Shown here: positions 4,024 to 17,079 of the stretch, piece by piece | Numbering within the stretch: position 1 is the stretch's first letter | Layout: every line of letters starts with the position of its first letter | From: a virus | IMG/VR virus record: IMGVR_UViG_3300047471_000162 | Span: 1 to 64,000 of that record | DNA: 64,000 nucleotides | Direction: 5' to 3' (one strand) | The notes under the pieces: generated by a model | Seen by the model: only the letters and a program-made list of their open reading frames with translations | Databases searched by the model: none | What the model was told of the DNA's origin: nothing | Made by a program: the position numbers and the translations under genes

Positions 4024-4578
4024 CTATCCTCCCAGGAGTTGGGATGCAGTATACCCACTACCTTGGATGGGAGTCTTTCTCTTCTTTCCGCTATACCAAG
4101 GGAGAGCCAGTCCATCGTTCTCTCTTCTTGGTACTAGGTGTATATGTAGATGGAATACTGATTGGGTCGCCGAAATTCCCTTACTTGTGATGAGATTGAA
4201 ATCTCCACCGATTTCTGCGGCTAGTTCAGAAGCTAGTTCTACTACGTCTCCCGATATAGTTGGATTTTCGGTGAAGTCGGTTATATGTCTCTTTGGAATA
4301 ACGAGTAAATGTCCCTCTACGACAGGATCAAGGGGAACGATTGCTATAGCATTCCACCAGTCTTTTACTACCGTGGCTGGTGAGTTCCCTACCACGATTC
4401 CACAGAATATACAAGGTGGCGCGATTTTTCTCTCCAATTCTTCTAGTAGCTCTTTCTTTGCTTCCAGACGGGATCTGATTACTTCTTTCCCTACGGTATA
4501 GCCCGTAGGGAGATGAGTTATCTTTATATAGACAGATCCGCTGGTATATACATCTATTCGTAGATCTTCTATCTCCAT
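4024..4578 (-). CDS. HIT-family nucleotide hydrolase with an N-terminal release-factor-like domain lacking GGQ
   Basis: CIFC...GHLLVIPKRH...HLHIHLVPR histidine triad; N-terminal DLRIDVY..SG...ITHLPTG resembles RF1/RF2 domain 3. Confidence 0.85.
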   Translation of the reverse strand: MEIEDLRIDVYTSGSVYIKITHLPTGYTVGKEVIRSRLEAKKELLEELERKIAPPCIFCGIVVGNSPATVVKDWWNAIAIVPLDPVVEGHLLVIPKRHITDFTENPTISGDVVELASELAAEIGGDFNLITSKGISATQSVFHLHIHLVPRRENDGLALPWYSGKKRKTPIQGSGYTASQLLGG

Positions 4579-5391: not shown

Positions 5392-5931
5392 CTACCTGTC
5401 AAGACCCGCTAGATAGGTTCTCATGATGTAATTCCAGCGAGCATCGTGAAGAGCGTTGTGATCACCCTCTAGTTGTGCTGGATAAGCAGGGTTTCCTAGT
5501 CTATGGAGTTCCTGACGTAGATCGTTGGTCCACATTGGCATATCTTCTGGTAGATCCAACATTCTTCCAAAGAGCTGACTCAGAACTACGTGATCGTATG
5601 CCGCATACCATGCCCATAGTTCTGGAATACCTTTTTCAGTACAGAATTCTCTTACTTCCTTGGCAATCTGCTCTCTGGGCTTTACATGCTTCCAGTCAGG
5701 ATGGAAGGTATCCCAGGATACTAATCCATCTGTTATCTTTACTGGGAGATAACGAAGAACATTCTTACGTAGCCAATCATTTTTAGCTGCTCTTACCATT
5801 ACTCCCATGTCATGAACTACTGCATAATACTCTTTACCGTCTTCTCGAACCATACCAATGGAGATTAACTCGATAGTTTCTCCATCATCGATAAATTCGG
5901 TATCGTAATCAATTTTCATCTGTTCTCCCAA
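5392..5931 (-). CDS. DEDDh 3'-5' exoribonuclease, RNase AS (Rv2179c)-like
   Basis: YDTEF..DG.TIELISIG, LWAWYAAYDHV, HNALHDARWN motifs. Confidence 0.85.
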   Translation of the reverse strand: MGEQMKIDYDTEFIDDGETIELISIGMVREDGKEYYAVVHDMGVMVRAAKNDWLRKNVLRYLPVKITDGLVSWDTFHPDWKHVKPREQIAKEVREFCTEKGIPELWAWYAAYDHVVLSQLFGRMLDLPEDMPMWTNDLRQELHRLGNPAYPAQLEGDHNALHDARWNYIMRTYLAGLDR

Positions 5932-6246: not shown

Positions 6247-6822
6247 TCACAATTTATCCCTCAAAAAGATTAGATACTCGAAATCGGGCTCGTCTAGTCC
6301 GATTCTGGGGCTTATTGGCATGATTCTAGCTGTGCCTGAGCTATTTTTAGTCAAATAGTCCAAGTCTTTCTTCATAACTTCATCATCAACCCAGATATAT
6401 GGAGTATTGGGTCGATTCTCGTTCATCCATGAAGCGATTCTCTTGGTTTTCCAGTGAAGTTTCTCTGGATTATAGGTATCTTTGTCTATCCAGTCAATGA
6501 CTGGTAACTCTGGGAGACCAATATGTGGACCGATCCACACGTTGGCATCCTCCTCCCATGTGGTAGCCCAGATGACCTCATACCCCAGAGACATGATTCT
6601 CGGCCCGTGAAGGGGGTTTAGCCAGACTTTCAGAGGCTTGGTGGCTACCCAGCCCGTTGGGGTCATCCGATGCGTCTCATAGCCCTCTGGGCGCTTCGTA
6701 GGTTTGGCCGCGTAGGGATTAAGTGGACCGTCTACATCCAATAAAATCACTGGTTTATTAGAAGCTTCCATACTTAACTCTCTCCTCGTTACACCAAGTA
6801 TGGATGGCCACCAACTTCCCAT
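6247..6822 (-). CDS. HAD-family phosphatase of the Swiss-Army-Knife RNA-repair type
   Basis: LLDVDGPLN, WATTW and WVDD motifs; start probably at MEASNK. Confidence 0.8.
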   Translation of the reverse strand: MGSWWPSILGVTRRELSMEASNKPVILLDVDGPLNPYAAKPTKRPEGYETHRMTPTGWVATKPLKVWLNPLHGPRIMSLGYEVIWATTWEEDANVWIGPHIGLPELPVIDWIDKDTYNPEKLHWKTKRIASWMNENRPNTPYIWVDDEVMKKDLDYLTKNSSGTARIMPISPRIGLDEPDFEYLIFLRDKL

Positions 6823-14549: not shown

Positions 14550-14625
14550 TCTCACGGGGCAGCTATTGGCAGCTGCAACGGTCTGTTAAACCGTCACCCT
14601 ACTGGTTCGATTCCAGTCGTGAGAG
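14550..14625 (+). tRNA. tRNA-Asn(GTT)
   Basis: ACGGT-CTGTTAA-ACCGT. Confidence 0.88.
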
Positions 14626-14630
14626 CTTGT

Positions 14631-14727
14631 AGGAAGTCTTAGACATGGGCTACGGTTCAATTCCGTAACAATGCTGGTGGGTGGTTGATCGCCACATGCC
14701 TTCTAGGTGCGAAACCTAGAGCTTCCT
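14631..14727 (+). ncRNA. Structured RNA containing a T-arm-like hairpin
   Basis: AGGAAG/CTTCCT closing stem; TACGG-TTCAATT-CCGTA; TCTAGGT/ACCTAGA hairpin. Confidence 0.5.
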
Positions 14728-14736
14728 CATTGACTT

Positions 14737-14877
14737 GACAGCGATGCGTAGATAAGAGATACTTCAAGGGAACCCTTAGTCGTAGGTTCGAATCCTACCC
14801 GGCCGAACACTTCGGTTGGTAGCTCAGCGGTAGAGCAGGGGTAAGTAAAATTCTTTTATCGCTTCTTTCTAGCTGTC
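14737..14877 (+). ncRNA. Y RNA, YrlA-like, with a circularly permuted tRNA-like domain (unit 1)
   Basis: GACAGC/GCTGTC terminal stem; CGATGCG...TACTTC...TTTCTAG scaffold; order T arm, looped acceptor-like stem, D arm; upstream of a Ro60 gene. Confidence 0.85.
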
Positions 14878-14886
14878 TTATAACTT

Positions 14887-14980
14887 AAGAGCCGATGCGT
14901 AGATCAGGGGTTACTTCCTCACTAATTCAAATGGTTGGGCCATAGCGCCCGTCTCCTCAGATCGCTTTTTCTAGGCCCTT
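14887..14980 (+). ncRNA. Y-RNA-like unit 2
   Basis: AAGAGCC/GGCCCTT stem; CGATGCG...TTACTTC...TTTCTAG. Confidence 0.75.
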
Positions 14981-14996
14981 ACGCTAACTTAATTTT

Positions 14997-15069
14997 TCTA
15001 CCCGATGCGCAGTTAACAGTTACTTCCTTCCAAAATATAAGCACTGTTAACGACTTTTTCTAGGGTGGA
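14997..15069 (+). ncRNA. Y-RNA-like unit 3 (minimal)
   Basis: TCTACCC/GGGTGGA and GTTAACAGT/ACTGTTAAC stems; same three motifs. Confidence 0.75.
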
Positions 15070-15080
15070 TCTCAAATTTC

Positions 15081-15208
15081 AGTTCCGATGCGAAGGTATA
15101 CTGGTTACTTCCCACTTGAAATGAGAACGGGAGGGTTTGAATCCCTCAAGGTCCACTCAGGGCCTGCATGACGCCAGTTAACACCAGAAGCCGCTATTTC
15201 TAGGAACT
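15081..15208 (+). ncRNA. Y-RNA-like unit 4 with T-arm hairpin
   Basis: AGTTCC/GGAACT stem; same motifs; GAGGG-TTTGAAT-CCCTC. Confidence 0.75.
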
Positions 15209-15221
15209 TATTTTTAATCCT

Positions 15222-15263
15222 CCCCATTGTCCGAGTTTTCTCGCACTAATGGGGTTTATTTTT
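15222..15263 (+). terminator. Intrinsic terminator-like hairpin after the Y-RNA array
   Basis: CCCCATT...AATGGGG followed by TTTATTTTT. Confidence 0.6.
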
Positions 15264-15298
15264 CTCTAACCATGTACCACGATAAAGGAGGCAATACA

Positions 15299-16876
15299 AT
15301 GGCTAAGTTCAATCAGGTAGTTAAGACAGGTGTACAGTCCCCTATTAAGACTACAGTTAAGACTGTAAACGCTGATGGTTTCGCAGCATTTCAGAGGGAT
15401 ACCAAGTCAGAGCTGTTCCTCCTGGCAGTATCCAACTTTGTTGGGCAGGATATGTTCTATGAGAATGCAAAGAACCGTGATGACCGTTTTGCCAAGCTCT
15501 GCCAGGCAGTAGCTGTGCAGGATTCCGACTGGTTCCGCAAGTTCGTGGGTTGGCTCCGTAATGGTGCTCAGATGCGTTCTGCGTCCATCGTAGCGGCTGC
15601 TGAGGGTGCTAAGGCACTTCTAGACGCTGGCGCGGTGAATGGCTCTCCTAGGGCCCTTGTAGCGGCTTCTATGGCACGTGCTGATGAGCCTGGTGAGTTC
15701 CTGGCATACTGGACTTCTAAGTATGGTAAGAATCTGCCTCAGTCGATTAAGAAGGGTGTTGCTGATGCGGCTAACCGTCTCTACAACGAGTACTCTCTTC
15801 TTAAGTACGATACGGATTCCAAGGGGTTCCGTTTTGCTGATGTTCTTCAGCTTAGCCACGCTAAGGCAAAGGATGCAAAGCAGAACGACCTTTTCCACTA
15901 TGCACTGAACCGTCGTTATGGTAAGGAGCACGTTATTTGGCATCACAATGCGCAAATTCCATTGAATCTTCCTATGATTGACATTCGACGTTTTATTATG
16001 GATCTTCCAGTTAATAAGCGCCGTGACTACCTGTCAAAGGCTCCTGAAGCCTTTAAGAGTGCGGGTATGACTTGGGAGGCTCTTGCAGGATGGCTTCAGG
16101 GTCCTATGGATGCTCAGGCTTGGCAGTCAGTTATTCCCAACATGGGTTATATGGCACTGCTTCGTAACCTTCGTAACTTCCAGGAAGCGGGCGTGGATAC
16201 TAAGGTATTCAAGTCTGTGCTGACTAAGCTATCCAATAAGGATGAGGTTGCAAAGTCTCGTCAGTTCCCTTTCCGATTCCTGTCTGCCTACCAGGCAAAT
16301 CTGGGTAACCTCAAGATTGCTGCGGCTCTCGAAGAGGCACTAGAGTCTTCTCTTATTAACGTTCCGGCGCTATCTGGTAAGACTTTGATCCTGGTTGACC
16401 GCTCTGGTAGCATGTTCTGGAGCAATGATGACAAGATGAACCTGACGCTTGCCGATCAGGCAGCGATCTTCGGATCCTCTTTGGCACTGCGTGCTGAGAG
16501 TGCTACACTGGTCCAGTTCGGCTCTAGCTCCTCTGAGATCAACTTCCGCAAGGGAGATTCTGTTCTCAAGTTGGTCAAGGACAGTTTCATTGGGATGGGT
16601 GGCACAGCTACAGATCGTGCTATCAAGGCGCACTTCAAGGATCATGATCGTGTTATTCTCATCACTGATGAGCAGTACAACTCTGGTCATGCTCCTTCTG
16701 TACCTAAGGGCACTCCGATGTACACGTGGAACCTTGGTGGATACCCGGCTGCTCAGGCAGAGTCCGGTAGCAACAAGAAGCACACATTCGGTGGCTTGAC
16801 TGACAAGGCATTCAGTATGATCCCTATGCTTGAGTCTGGTCAGTCTGGCGTTTGGCCTTGGGATCTGGTAGAGTAG
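15299..16876 (+). CDS. Ro60/Rsr-like TROVE-domain RNA-binding protein with C-terminal VWA domain
   Basis: FYE...RF, RADEPGE, MTWE, MGYMALLRNLRN, SRQFPFRFLSAY, LVDRSGSM (MIDAS), ITDEQ; AAGGAGG RBS places the start at 15299. Confidence 0.93.
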   Translation: MAKFNQVVKTGVQSPIKTTVKTVNADGFAAFQRDTKSELFLLAVSNFVGQDMFYENAKNRDDRFAKLCQAVAVQDSDWFRKFVGWLRNGAQMRSASIVAAAEGAKALLDAGAVNGSPRALVAASMARADEPGEFLAYWTSKYGKNLPQSIKKGVADAANRLYNEYSLLKYDTDSKGFRFADVLQLSHAKAKDAKQNDLFHYALNRRYGKEHVIWHHNAQIPLNLPMIDIRRFIMDLPVNKRRDYLSKAPEAFKSAGMTWEALAGWLQGPMDAQAWQSVIPNMGYMALLRNLRNFQEAGVDTKVFKSVLTKLSNKDEVAKSRQFPFRFLSAYQANLGNLKIAAALEEALESSLINVPALSGKTLILVDRSGSMFWSNDDKMNLTLADQAAIFGSSLALRAESATLVQFGSSSSEINFRKGDSVLKLVKDSFIGMGGTATDRAIKAHFKDHDRVILITDEQYNSGHAPSVPKGTPMYTWNLGGYPAAQAESGSNKKHTFGGLTDKAFSMIPMLESGQSGVWPWDLVE

Positions 16877-17005
16877 TTTTTACAAGATAAGGGTAAGTCT
16901 TTTCTAGAGGGAACCCTTGGGTACAAGATATGCTGAGTACAGATAGGCAAATGCTTGTAAACTGATCCTCCACCATCTGATTTGGGGGATGCCTCTAGGA
17001 GTCTT

Positions 17006-17079
17006 GGGCTTGTAGCTCCAATTGGAAGAGCAACTGATTTGCACTCAGTAGGTTGTCGGTTCGAGTCCGACCTGGTCCA
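17006..17079 (+). tRNA. tRNA-Ala(TGC)
   Basis: ACTGA-TTTGCAC-TCAGT; G3:U70. Confidence 0.9.

What the first reader, a model, noticed from the sequence alone, without database searches (positions are those of the whole stretch)
14737..16876. Phage Ro60 locus with four tandem Y-RNA-like units sharing a constant scaffold but carrying different cargo
Seen: four back-to-back units (14737-14877, 14887-14980, 14997-15069, 15081-15208). Each has a terminal stem whose sequence differs between units but still pairs (GACAGC/GCTGTC, AAGAGCC/GGCCCTT, TCTACCC/GGGTGGA, AGTTCC/GGAACT). Each has CGATGCG on the 5' strand, TTTCTAG on the 3' strand and an internal TACTTC. The enclosed cargo differs: unit 1 has a full circularly permuted tRNA mimic (T arm, looped acceptor-like stem, D arm); unit 4 has a T arm plus a hairpin; unit 2 has a small hairpin; unit 3 has only a short loop. 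A terminator-like hairpin and a Ro60/TROVE gene follow. Established: bacterial Ro60 (Rsr) binds adjacently encoded Y RNAs (YrlA tRNA mimics, Yrn1) that can tether it to effectors such as PNPase, and some phages carry Ro/Yrl loci. Inference: this is a modular RNP system in which one Ro60 loads four interchangeable adaptor RNAs. Possible roles are recruiting different RNases or repair enzymes, or decoying host anticodon nucleases, inside a large tRNA island.
Basis: partly seen in the sequence, partly recalled or inferred. Interest (0 to 1): 0.92.

Follow-up and report, generated by a model that had tools for sequence, protein, structure and literature searches.

The report
Phage Ro60 gene with four Y RNAs
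A soil Streptomyces-type phage carries, just upstream of its Ro60 RNA-binding protein gene, four back-to-back small RNA genes of the known Y RNA type. This extends a known system to more copies rather than revealing a new one, and similar arrays occur in related phages and in their bacterial hosts.

Summary
Four co-oriented units (14737-14877, 14887-14980, 14997-15069, 15081-15208) share a terminal stem, an invariant 5' CGAUGCG, a second stem, an invariant UACUUC and a 3' UUUCUAG. A terminator hairpin and a TROVE/Ro60 gene (15299-16876) follow.

Both stems are supported by covariation. In 27 aligned units, all 16 pairs show compensatory changes, and 89% of cells pair versus 59% when shuffled.

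Unit 1 is a YrlA-type tRNA mimic: Rfam RF02553 scores 41.7 bits (E 3e-7), below the gathering score of 69.

A covariance model built only from the minimal unit finds such units only next to Ro60 genes:
- in the window's own genome;
- in four other whole phage genomes;
- in 3 of 80 motif-seeded viral loci, the only three of them encoding Ro60;
- upstream and on the same strand in 62 of 80 actinobacterial Ro60 loci, with up to five units.

So this is a phage copy of the actinobacterial Ro60/Y RNA locus, of the kind described for M. smegmatis YrlA/YrlB and phage phiLo Yrl1/Yrl2. It has four paralogues and a phage-specific loop signature (GAUGCG, where the bacteria have GGUGCG).

Binding by Ro60, processing of the transcript and different partners for each cargo are inferred, not shown. 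I class it as a new member of a known kind, of moderate interest.

The parts
14737..14877 (+). Y RNA unit 1, YrlA type. Terminal stem GACAGC/GCUGUC, then GAUGCG, stem 2 (GAUAAGAG/CUUUUAUC), UACUUC, stem 3, T arm, 9-bp acceptor-like hairpin, D arm, then UUUCUAG.
   Evidence: Rfam RF02553 scores 41.7 bits, E 3.3e-7, below the gathering score of 69. RNAalifold on 7 orthologues gives 40 pairs, 16 with compensatory changes.
14887..14980 (+). Y RNA unit 2: scaffold plus a small GGGC/GCCC hairpin cargo.
   Evidence: Model R1 scores 31 bits, E 1e-5. Orthologues exist in 5 related phages, with compensatory changes in both scaffold stems.
14997..15069 (+). Y RNA unit 3: minimal unit of 73 nt, scaffold closed by a loop of about 22 nt.
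   Evidence: One of the 7 seed sequences of model R1 (A2). In A2, 86.6% of cells pair versus 77.6% when shuffled, and slid controls give 30-49%. MFE z = -2.4.
15081..15208 (+). Y RNA unit 4: scaffold plus a T arm (UUUGAAU loop) and a GGUCC/GGGCC hairpin. There is no D arm here, although the orthologues in BRock, LuckySocke, GiJojo and pSt2308 keep a full T arm, acceptor-like stem and D arm.
   Evidence: R1 scores 31.8 bits, E 6e-6. The T arm shows covariation. The BRock orthologue gives a partial YrlA hit.
15222..15263 (+). Intrinsic-terminator-like hairpin with a U tract, between the array and the Ro60 gene.
   Evidence: dG -16.9 kcal/mol, z = -5.5, none of 200 shuffles as good. An equivalent hairpin with a T run sits at the same place in all five other related loci printed through to the Ro60 start (BRock, LuckySocke, GiJojo, pSt2308, L010, L011). 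The consensus terminator scan did not list it.
15285..15291 (+). Ribosome-binding site AAGGAGG of the Ro60 gene.
   Evidence: Read directly from the sequence. It lies 7 nt before the ATG at 15299.
15299..16876 (+). Ro60/TROVE protein gene (525 aa), with a DRSGS (DxSxS) motif aligned in its vWA part.
   Evidence: Pfam TROVE, E 2.4e-16. phmmer against phage phiLo Ro60 (9KOP/9L5Y), E 1.7e-30. It is 62-64% identical to the 'Ro-like RNA binding protein' of BRock-type Streptomyces phages and 45-52% identical to actinobacterial Ro60.
14735..14763 (+). Promoter-like TTGACA-17 nt-GATACT, overlapping the 5' strand of unit 1. Its function is uncertain.
   Evidence: It matches the consensus at 10 of 12 positions. 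TTGACA is invariant in all 7 unit-1 orthologues. The scan found 8 such sites, with 4.3 +/- 2.6 expected.
14550..14626 (+). tRNA-Asn(GTT), the upstream neighbour. In BRock and L010, unit 1 starts directly after this tRNA.
   Evidence: ARAGORN and the annotated BRock record.

Best explanation
The region encodes four paralogous Y RNAs, one YrlA-type tRNA mimic and three shorter YrlB-like RNAs. They belong to the Ro60 gene that follows.

Scaffold. Each RNA folds into the canonical Y RNA shape. The 5' and 3' ends pair into a terminal stem. An asymmetric internal loop follows, with invariant bases (5' GAUGCG, 3' UUUCUA). Then come a second stem and a large variable module that begins with UACUUC. 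I infer that the invariant stem and loop form the docking site for the phage Ro60 ring, and that the variable module is the effector-facing part.

Expression (inferred). The array is most likely transcribed together with the upstream tRNA cluster, or from a nearby promoter. Transcription would end at the hairpin at 15222-15263. The transcript would then be cut in the short AU-rich spacers (9-16 nt) into RNAs of about 73-141 nt, as shown for M. smegmatis YrlA/YrlB.

Function (inferred). Bound to Ro60, the RNAs would gate the Ro60 cavity and tether it to other RNA enzymes. By precedent these could be PNPase or another 3'-5' exoribonuclease. For the tRNA-like module they could be tRNA-recognising enzymes such as RNase P, the CCA-adding enzyme or TruB. 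The result would be an RNA surveillance or decay particle working during infection by a phage that brings 30 tRNAs and other RNA-repair-type genes.

Shown here: the anatomy, the covariation, the homology of unit 1 to YrlA and the exclusive linkage to Ro60 genes. Inferred: Ro60 binding, processing and the partners.
For: 1. The motifs and their spacing are far beyond chance.

2. Thirty units from 7 related phages keep C-[G/A]AUGCG, UACUUC and UU[U/C/A]CUAG invariant while the stems vary. Each unit's own two strands pair far better than strands taken from different unit classes. For stem 2 the means are -10.4 versus -4.85 kcal/mol. For the terminal stem they are -7.95 versus -1.1 kcal/mol. Mann-Whitney p is about 1e-18 and 1e-20.

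3. Model R1 was built only from the minimal unit. It recovers units 2 and 4, and nothing else in the 64-kb window or the 112.9-kb genome.

4. On 27 hits, all 16 pairs show compensatory changes. 89.4% of cells pair, versus 59% when shuffled and about 39% when slid.

5. The units are linked to Ro60 genes.
- In the whole genomes of BRock, Atuin, Satis and Neville, the hits lie only at the Ro60 locus.
- Of 80 motif-seeded viral loci (687 kb), only L046, L075 and L088 have hits, and they are the only three encoding Ro60, directly adjacent.
- In 80 actinobacterial Ro60 loci there are 98 hits, all on the Ro60 strand and all upstream of the start.
- A simple regex there gives 131 plus-strand versus 3 minus-strand matches, with 127 upstream of the start.

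6. Unit 1 and its orthologues match Rfam YrlA at E 3e-7 to 9e-3, with a covarying T arm, acceptor-like stem and D arm.

7. All units within one genome share one loop signature, and the signature differs between Ro60 lineages. BRock-like phages have GAUGCG/UUUCUAG. Satis has GGUGCGA/UGGUUAACC. L075 has mostly GAUGCG (4 of 6 units) with UUCUC(G/A)G. Bacteria have GGUGCG/UCUCGG. This is what several RNAs serving one cognate protein would show.

8. Precedent. M. smegmatis YrlA and YrlB are encoded 5' of the Ro60 gene, are processed from one precursor and are bound by Ro60, and YrlB has a T arm (PMC4201824). Phage phiLo Ro60 binds two upstream Yrl RNAs and forms complexes with host PNPase (PMC12135203).
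Against: - There is no expression or binding data. No RNA run holding this sequence could be found.
- The literal published Ro-binding consensus GNCGAA(N0-1)G is not matched. The units have NCGAUGCG.
- Only unit 1 matches an Rfam family, and it scores below the gathering threshold (41.7 versus 69 bits).
- Single-sequence folding of units 2 and 4 is no better than that of shuffled sequence (z = +0.7 and -0.5). The support for their structure therefore comes from comparison, and alignment A4 was fitted to the model.
- A promoter-like site lies inside the 5' strand of unit 1. If it is used, transcripts from it would lack that strand of unit 1's scaffold.
- The partners of the cargo modules are unknown.
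Confidence: 0.8

Rival explanations
1. The four units act in cis, as a leader for the Ro60 gene, rather than as free adaptor RNAs. Ro60 would bind the nascent repeats and so control read-through of the hairpin at 15222-15263. This would autoregulate its own synthesis and titrate the protein.
For: A strong terminator-like hairpin sits between the array and the Ro60 ribosome-binding site, in the window and in the related loci. No convincing separate promoter for the Ro60 gene was found between 15264 and 15298. In the bacteria the units are always upstream and on the same strand.
Against: - In Arthrobacter phage Atuin, four units lie downstream of Ro60 and are interleaved with tRNA genes. This is incompatible with a pure leader role.
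- M. smegmatis YrlA and YrlB, and the phiLo Yrl RNAs, are stable or free Ro60 ligands (PMC4201824, PMC12135203).
- A pure titration site would not need conserved, covarying cargo such as the tRNA-like module.
Confidence: 0.08
2. Only unit 1, the YrlA type, is a working Y RNA. Units 2-4 are decaying duplicates with no role of their own.
For: Unit 4 in the window has lost the D arm that its orthologues in four related phages keep. L010 lacks unit 2 altogether. Cargo content declines from unit 1 to unit 3.
Against: - Units 2 and 3 are kept in register in 6-7 phages whose Ro60 proteins are only 62-74% identical, with compensatory changes in both stems.
- Their invariant motifs are as strictly conserved as those of unit 1.
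- Minimal units of 73-75 nt are also standard partners of YrlA-type units in Streptomyces, Micromonospora and Amycolatopsis.
Confidence: 0.07
3. The repeats work at the DNA level, as repeated promoter or operator sites, or are debris of tRNA genes in the tRNA island. In this reading they have no link to Ro60.
For: TTGACA-17-GATACT overlaps unit 1 and is conserved. T-arm sequences and ARAGORN false tRNA calls occur within units of related phages.
Against: - Compensatory base changes in two helices are an RNA-level signature.
- The motifs are strand-specific and not palindromic.
- Units occur only beside Ro60 genes, including in bacterial chromosomes with no tRNA island.
Confidence: 0.03

Closest known systems
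Mycobacterium smegmatis YrlA and YrlB with Rsr (Chen et al. 2014, PMC4201824)
   Same: - Tandem Y RNAs lie directly 5' of the Ro60 gene on the same strand.
- One is a permuted tRNA mimic (T arm, acceptor-like stem, D arm). The other is shorter and has a T arm.
- Both are processed from one precursor and bound by Ro60.
- The published northern probes imply an ACUUC element after the stem in both RNAs. This is my reading of the probe sequences.
   Different: - There are four units here rather than two. Two of their cargo types, a small hairpin and a bare loop, are not described for M. smegmatis.
- They are carried by a phage inside a 30-tRNA island.
- The loop signature is GAUGCG/UUUCUAG, where cellular Actinobacteria have GGUGCG/UCUCGG.
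Thermus phage phiLo Ro60 with Yrl1 and Yrl2 (NAR 2025, PMC12135203; PDB 9KOP, 9L5Y)
   Same: - A phage-encoded Ro60 with Y-like RNAs encoded just upstream.
- The RNAs have a stem, bulge and stem shape.
- The protein is homologous at E 1.7e-30.
- Binding to the RNAs and complexes with host PNPase were shown experimentally for phiLo.
   Different: - phiLo has two RNAs, found through a CGAA motif. The four here have CGAU.
- No YrlA-type tRNA mimic is mentioned in the passages of that paper that I read.
- The host phylum differs.
- tblastn protein identity is only about 25%.
Rfam RF02553 YrlA, including mycobacteriophage YrlA (ET08; Chen et al. 2014)
   Same: Unit 1 aligns over the full model with the T arm, acceptor-like hairpin and D arm in the same order. 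Phage YrlAs next to Ro60 genes have been known since 2014.
   Different: - The score is below the gathering threshold (41.7 versus 69 bits).
- The model placed its outer stem on this unit's stem 2, and its second stem did not pair.
- Units 2-4 are not detected at all.
- The actinobacterial YrlA-type units I found are also below threshold (54.1 and 36.3 bits).
Deinococcus radiodurans Yrn1 and Yrn2 with Rsr and PNPase (RYPER), as summarised in PMC4201824
   Same: Several small RNAs are encoded upstream of the Ro60 gene. Each Y RNA is modular, with a Ro60-binding stem plus an effector module that tethers an exoribonuclease.
   Different: - Chen et al. 2014 consider the Y RNA lineage separate.
- The order of the T and D arms differs.
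- Both strands of the metazoan-type Ro-binding helix are retained there.
Metazoan Y RNAs, two to four paralogues per species (PMC4201824)
   Same: One Ro60 protein serves several paralogous Y RNAs. These have a conserved lower stem with an internal loop and divergent large loops.
   Different: No sequence homology was tested here. The metazoan loops are not tRNA-like, and whether their genes lie in tandem was not looked into.

Membership tests
Bacterial/phage Y RNA (YrlA/YrlB class) | Encoded within about 2 kb of a Ro60/TROVE gene | tested here: met
   The units end 91 nt before the Ro60 ATG, on the same strand. The same linkage holds in every related locus examined.
Bacterial/phage Y RNA (YrlA/YrlB class) | The 5' and 3' ends pair into a long stem, interrupted by an internal loop, that closes a large variable loop | tested here: met
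   There are two helices, with 16 of 16 pairs showing compensatory changes. 89.4% of cells pair, versus 59% when shuffled and about 39% when slid. An independent test of own strands against strands of other unit classes agrees.
Bacterial/phage Y RNA (YrlA/YrlB class) | Published 5'-strand Ro-binding consensus GNCGAA(N0-1)G (Chen 2014), or the CGAA motif (phiLo paper) | tested here: inconclusive
   The literal consensus is not matched. All four units have NCGAUGCG, and only unit 2 has the G at -2. An invariant variant occupies the same position in all 30 phage units. In the bacteria, 117 of 131 regex matches, nearly all upstream of Ro60, have GGUGCG. The published motif therefore looks too narrow, rather than the feature being absent.
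Bacterial/phage Y RNA (YrlA/YrlB class) | Bound by Ro60 | not testable with these tools
   No tool here handles RNA-protein interaction. The claim is inferred from linkage and from loop signatures that differ by Ro60 lineage but are shared within a genome.
Bacterial/phage Y RNA (YrlA/YrlB class) | Discrete stable transcripts of about 70-150 nt | not testable with these tools
   No RNA run holding this sequence was listed.
YrlA (Rfam RF02553) | tRNA-like module in the order T arm, acceptor-like stem-loop, D arm | tested here: met
   Met for unit 1 only (cmscan alignment; RNAalifold with covariation in all three arms). Unit 4 has the T arm only. Units 2 and 3 have none.
YrlA (Rfam RF02553) | Score at or above Rfam's gathering threshold of 69 bits | tested here: not met
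   Unit 1 scores 41.7 bits, E 3.3e-7. Its orthologues score 30.7-43.5 bits, and Micromonospora units score 54.1 and 36.3 bits. I therefore call unit 1 a YrlA-type homologue, not a curated RF02553 member.
Ro60/TROVE protein | TROVE domain followed by a vWA domain with a DxSxS MIDAS motif | tested here: met
   Pfam PF05731 scores 60.4 bits against a cut-off of 23. The protein aligns with phiLo Ro60 over residues 18-205 and 249-518, including LVDRSGSM aligned with LVDVSGSM.

The most novel reading that the evidence does not exclude
The BRock-type phages may run a private Ro60/Y RNA system that is insulated from the host's own. All of their units carry GAUGCG/UUUCUAG, where the host-type units carry GGUGCG/UCUCGG. 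This replaces a G-C pair next to the conserved loop with a G.A mismatch. Phage Ro60 would then load only phage Y RNAs, or phage Y RNAs would instead soak up host Ro60. The four or five cargo classes would each recruit a different host RNA enzyme to protect, process or selectively destroy RNAs during infection by a phage that carries its own 30-tRNA set.

More broadly, arrays of 3-6 modular Y RNAs would be the rule at Ro60 loci of phages and Actinobacteria, with several Y RNA classes not yet described.
Probability: 0.2. Interest if true: 0.7.

Novelty: new member of a known kind. Interest (0 to 1): 0.45.

Why it matters
Y RNAs are thought to be adaptors that decide what the Ro60 ring acts on. 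Very few bacterial or phage examples have been studied, and at most two per locus.

This locus and its relatives offer a natural series. One constant Ro60-docking scaffold carries four to six different modules: a full tRNA mimic, a T arm only, a small hairpin and a bare loop. Several of the related phages are cultured Streptomyces, Gordonia and Arthrobacter phages. That makes direct tests possible of which partner each module recruits and what Ro60 does for a phage.

There are practical consequences too:
- The scaffold model finds Y RNAs that Rfam's YrlA model misses at its gathering threshold.
- It exposes misannotations in deposited phage genomes: a false tRNA-Ser and a false tRNA-Arg, small ORFs laid over Y RNA units, and a Ro60 start that was probably called too early.

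Tried and rejected
- Rfam at gathering thresholds reported no Y RNA family in the window. In E-value mode it gave only the sub-threshold YrlA hit on unit 1. It also gave a weak hit at 16944-17062 (19.2 bits, E = 1) that borrows the D arm of tRNA-Ala, which I treat as spurious.
- Megablast of the locus against phage records found only partial Ro60 gene matches. The array was found through protein synteny instead.
- MAFFT on all 30 units put the 3' strand of stem 2 out of register. I replaced it with an energy test of own versus other-class strands, and with a model-based alignment.
- cmsearch with filters off lost the long units, so I used default filters for the alignment.
- The exact-pattern scan of viral contigs (14 specified bases) returned mostly matches that model R1 did not confirm. 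Only 3 of 80 loci were real.
- Model R1 does not detect window unit 1 itself, probably because of the cargo insert of about 110 nt. It does detect the unit-1 orthologues in L002 and L004.
- Window 14627-14736 has a T-arm-like hairpin and a TTCTAG. I examined it as a possible degenerate fifth unit, matching 'unit 0' of LuckySocke, GiJojo and pSt2308. It has no CGAUGCG or UACUUC and no R1 hit, so I do not count it as a unit.
- Sequencing runs: no RNA holder was listed, so I did not use read laying.
- The reviews PMC10870794 and PMC6047535 and the paper PMC5062991 are not held. I therefore could not check whether larger Y RNA arrays have already been noted there.
- I did not use complex prediction, because it does not handle RNA.
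Full report
**Setting.** The window is the first 64 kb of a 112.9-kb virus record that CheckV rates complete. It carries 30 tRNA genes and a mini tmRNA-like element. Its closest annotated relatives are BRock-type Streptomyces phages. The DNA holders listed for the stretch are rhizosphere and soil metagenomes.

- CGATGCG occurs on the + strand at 14742, 14893, 15003 and 15086. That is four of only seven matches in the window on both strands, with 2.55 expected.
- Each is followed by TACTTC and by TTTCTAG.
- The composite pattern CGATGCG-N5-20-TACTTC is found four times forward, never in reverse and never in the control, in the whole genome.
The C of CGATGCG pairs with the G of CTAG.
- A strong hairpin with a U tract lies at 15222-15263 (z = -5.5). 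A ribosome-binding site and a 525-aa TROVE protein gene at 15299-16876 follow.

**The array is conserved.** The Ro60 protein is 62-64% identical to the 'Ro-like RNA binding protein' of phages BRock, LuckySocke, Alone3, GiJojo and pSt2308. It is 65-71% identical to those of two IMG/VR contigs. In all of these the gene order is tRNA-Asn, an unannotated gap of 0.5-0.7 kb, Ro60, then tRNA-Ala/Lys. The gap holds the same kind of units:
- four in BRock and L011;
- three in L010;
- five in LuckySocke, GiJojo and pSt2308, which have an extra 'unit 0' directly after tRNA-Asn.

An alignment of all 30 units shows that C-[G/A]AUGCG, UACUUC and UU[U/C/A]CUAG are invariant while the stems vary.

**The structure is supported by comparison.**
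- Each unit's own 5' and 3' strands pair much better than strands taken from different unit classes. For stem 2 the means are -10.4 versus -4.85 kcal/mol. For the terminal stem they are -7.95 versus -1.1 kcal/mol. Mann-Whitney p is about 1e-18 and 1e-20.
- On the seven minimal units alone, 86.6% of cells pair, versus 77.6% when shuffled and 30-49% when slid.
- A covariance model (R1) built only from those seven units recovers window units 2 and 4, at 31 and 31.8 bits with E about 1e-5. It finds nothing else in the window.
- On 27 hits aligned to the model, all 16 pairs show compensatory changes. 89.4% of cells pair, versus 59% when shuffled and about 39% when slid. This alignment was fitted to the model, so the energy test of own versus other-class strands is the independent check.
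- Folding units 2 and 4 on their own gives nothing special (z = +0.7 and -0.5).

**Cargo.**
- Unit 1 matches Rfam YrlA over the full model (41.7 bits, E 3.3e-7, gathering score 69). RNAalifold on its seven orthologues predicts the terminal stem, stem 2, a third stem, a T arm, a 9-bp acceptor-like hairpin and a D arm. Sixteen of the 40 pairs show compensatory changes.
- Unit 4 has a covarying T arm and a hairpin. In BRock, LuckySocke, GiJojo and pSt2308 the orthologous unit keeps a full T arm, acceptor-like stem and D arm. The window's copy, like those of L010 and L011, has therefore lost the D arm.
- Unit 2 carries a small hairpin.
- Unit 3 carries only a loop.
- None of the units has an anticodon arm.

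**Linkage to Ro60 is exclusive.**
- In the whole genomes of the window's phage, BRock, Atuin, Satis and Neville (about 680 kb), every R1 hit lies at the Ro60 locus.
- An exact-pattern scan of IMG/VR returned mostly matches that R1 did not confirm. Among 80 such loci (687 kb), R1 hit only L046, L075 and L088. A tblastn search shows these are the only three of the 80 that encode a Ro60 homologue, directly next to the hits.
- More distant phages also have arrays. Satis has three units. Neville has four, which overlap annotated small ORFs. Atuin has two upstream and four downstream of Ro60, interleaved with tRNAs. L075 has six and L088 three.

**The array is not phage-specific.** Actinobacterial chromosomes encode Ro60 proteins that are 45-52% identical to the phage protein. 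In 80 such loci R1 gives 98 hits, all on the Ro60 strand and all upstream of the start. They fall in 62 loci, and two Micromonospora loci have five each. The sequences show the same architecture, with GGUGCG, UACUUC and UCUCGG. Minimal units, T-arm units, hairpin units and YrlA-type units are mixed. A simple regex gives 131 plus-strand versus 3 minus-strand matches, 127 of them upstream of Ro60. Forty loci have two or more and 16 have three or more. The phage locus is therefore a copy of the actinobacterial Ro60/Y RNA module.

**Loop signatures follow the Ro60 lineage.** Within any one genome all units share one loop signature, and the signatures differ between Ro60 lineages. This is what several RNAs bound by one cognate protein would show. 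I take it as the best indirect argument that the invariant loop is the Ro60 docking site.

**What is known.**
- Chen et al. 2014 (PMC4201824) reported YrlA-like RNAs beside Ro60 in more than 250 bacteria and phages, including mycobacteriophages. They showed that M. smegmatis Ro60 binds YrlA and a second RNA, YrlB, which has a T arm. Both are encoded 5' of the Ro60 gene and are processed from one precursor.
- A 2025 study showed that Thermus phage phiLo Ro60 binds two upstream Yrl RNAs and forms complexes with host PNPase (PMC12135203). The window's protein matches that structure at E 1.7e-30.
- A Listeria phage study proposed that three abundant ncRNAs near an Rsr-like gene might be Y RNAs (PMC12282133).
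- The modular adaptor idea and the use of several Y RNAs per Ro60 are thus established.
- New here are the number of units, the two extra cargo types, the CGAU variant of the published CGAA motif, and how widespread such arrays are. I could not read the two Wolin-laboratory reviews, so earlier mention of larger arrays cannot be excluded.

**Mechanism.** I consider it most likely (about 0.8) that these are four Ro60-bound Y RNAs. Co-transcription with the tRNA cluster is suggested because unit 1 starts directly after tRNA-Asn in BRock and L010. Termination at the conserved hairpin and cutting in the AU-rich spacers of 9-16 nt are inferred. Tethering to an exoribonuclease or to tRNA enzymes is by precedent only.

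The genome does encode several RNA-repair-type proteins:
- an Rv2179c-like 3'-5' exoribonuclease;
- a HAD_SAK_2 domain protein, from a family linked to RNA repair;
- a HIT protein;
- a vWA-TerF-like protein.

The decoy idea for anticodon nucleases is weak, because the units have no anticodon arm.

One unresolved point is a promoter-like TTGACA-17-GATACT inside the 5' strand of unit 1. It is invariant in all seven orthologues.

**Verdict.** This is a real and well-supported Y RNA array at a phage Ro60 gene. I class it as a new member of a known kind, of moderate interest, mainly as an experimentally tractable natural series of Y RNA modules.

Noticed in passing
L002:2274-2347 (LuckySocke gene 36) and L003:2269-2343 (GiJojo gene 29): The annotated tRNA-Ser(gct) and tRNA-Arg(cct) start exactly at the CGATGCG of Y unit 4 and cover its 5' half. 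ARAGORN reproduces the calls, but the Rfam tRNA model does not report them at E<0.01. They are probably false tRNA annotations.
   Followed up: partly
L006:1463-1976 (Gordonia phage Neville gp88-gp91): Four Y-like units (GAUGCG...UUACUUC) overlap the annotated small ORFs gp88-gp90. One also overlaps the annotated start of the Ro60 CDS at 1923, whereas the protein match starts at 2001. The ORFs and that start codon look doubtful.
   Followed up: partly
window:14627-14736: A 110-nt spacer between tRNA-Asn and unit 1 folds into a structure closed by GGAAG/CUUCC. It holds three hairpins, one of them T-arm-like (ACGG-UUCAAUU-CCGU). z = -2.15. It has no Y scaffold motifs and no R1 hit.
   Followed up: partly
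window:14735-14763: A promoter-like TTGACA-17 nt-GATACT lies inside the 5' strand of unit 1. TTGACA is invariant in all 7 orthologues. If it is active, transcripts from it would lack the 5' scaffold strand of unit 1.
   Followed up: partly
window:15270-15281 and the same place in L001-L004, L010, L011: A conserved (A)CGTACCAC-like motif (TGTACCAC in the window) lies between the terminator hairpin and the Ro60 ribosome-binding site in all BRock-type loci. GTACCAC is not over-represented in the window (6 found, 7.25 expected).
   Followed up: partly
window:16877-17005: The spacer between the Ro60 stop codon and tRNA-Ala forms a long hairpin (CUAGAGG.../...CCUCUAG). It contains another TTTCTAG (16901) and GGCAAAUGCUUG. 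Rfam YrlA aligned the latter weakly (19.2 bits, E = 1). BRock has a small ORF at this position.
   Followed up: no
L011:2332-2443: A tRNA-like cloverleaf (Rfam tRNA 38.2 bits at 2359-2428; not called by ARAGORN) is enclosed, together with an extra hairpin, in a 10-bp outer stem. z = -5.8. It lies between tRNA-Asn and unit 1.
   Followed up: no
L001:4579-4742 and L002:4467-4699: There are hits to Rfam manA RNA just below threshold (49.7 and 47.8 bits, gathering score 55.2). They lie between the two tRNA-Lys genes of BRock and LuckySocke.
   Followed up: no
L183:1755-2461 and L168:1754-2461 (Micromonospora chromosomes): Five tandem Y-like units lie upstream of the bacterial Ro60 gene. They are a T-arm unit, a minimal unit, a YrlA type, a hairpin unit and a second YrlA type. 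This is more than the two Y RNAs described for any bacterium in the papers I could read.
   Followed up: partly
window:4027-6822 (- strand): A HIT-domain protein (4027-4578), an Rv2179c-like 3'-5' exoribonuclease (5395-5931) and a HAD_SAK_2 domain protein (6250-6822) lie about 8-10 kb from the Ro60 locus.
   Followed up: partly
window:20288-20369: Rfam tmRNA scores 59.2 bits (gathering score 47) on only 82 nt. This suggests a tRNA-like-domain-only mini tmRNA. Similar hits occur in L010 and L011.
   Followed up: no
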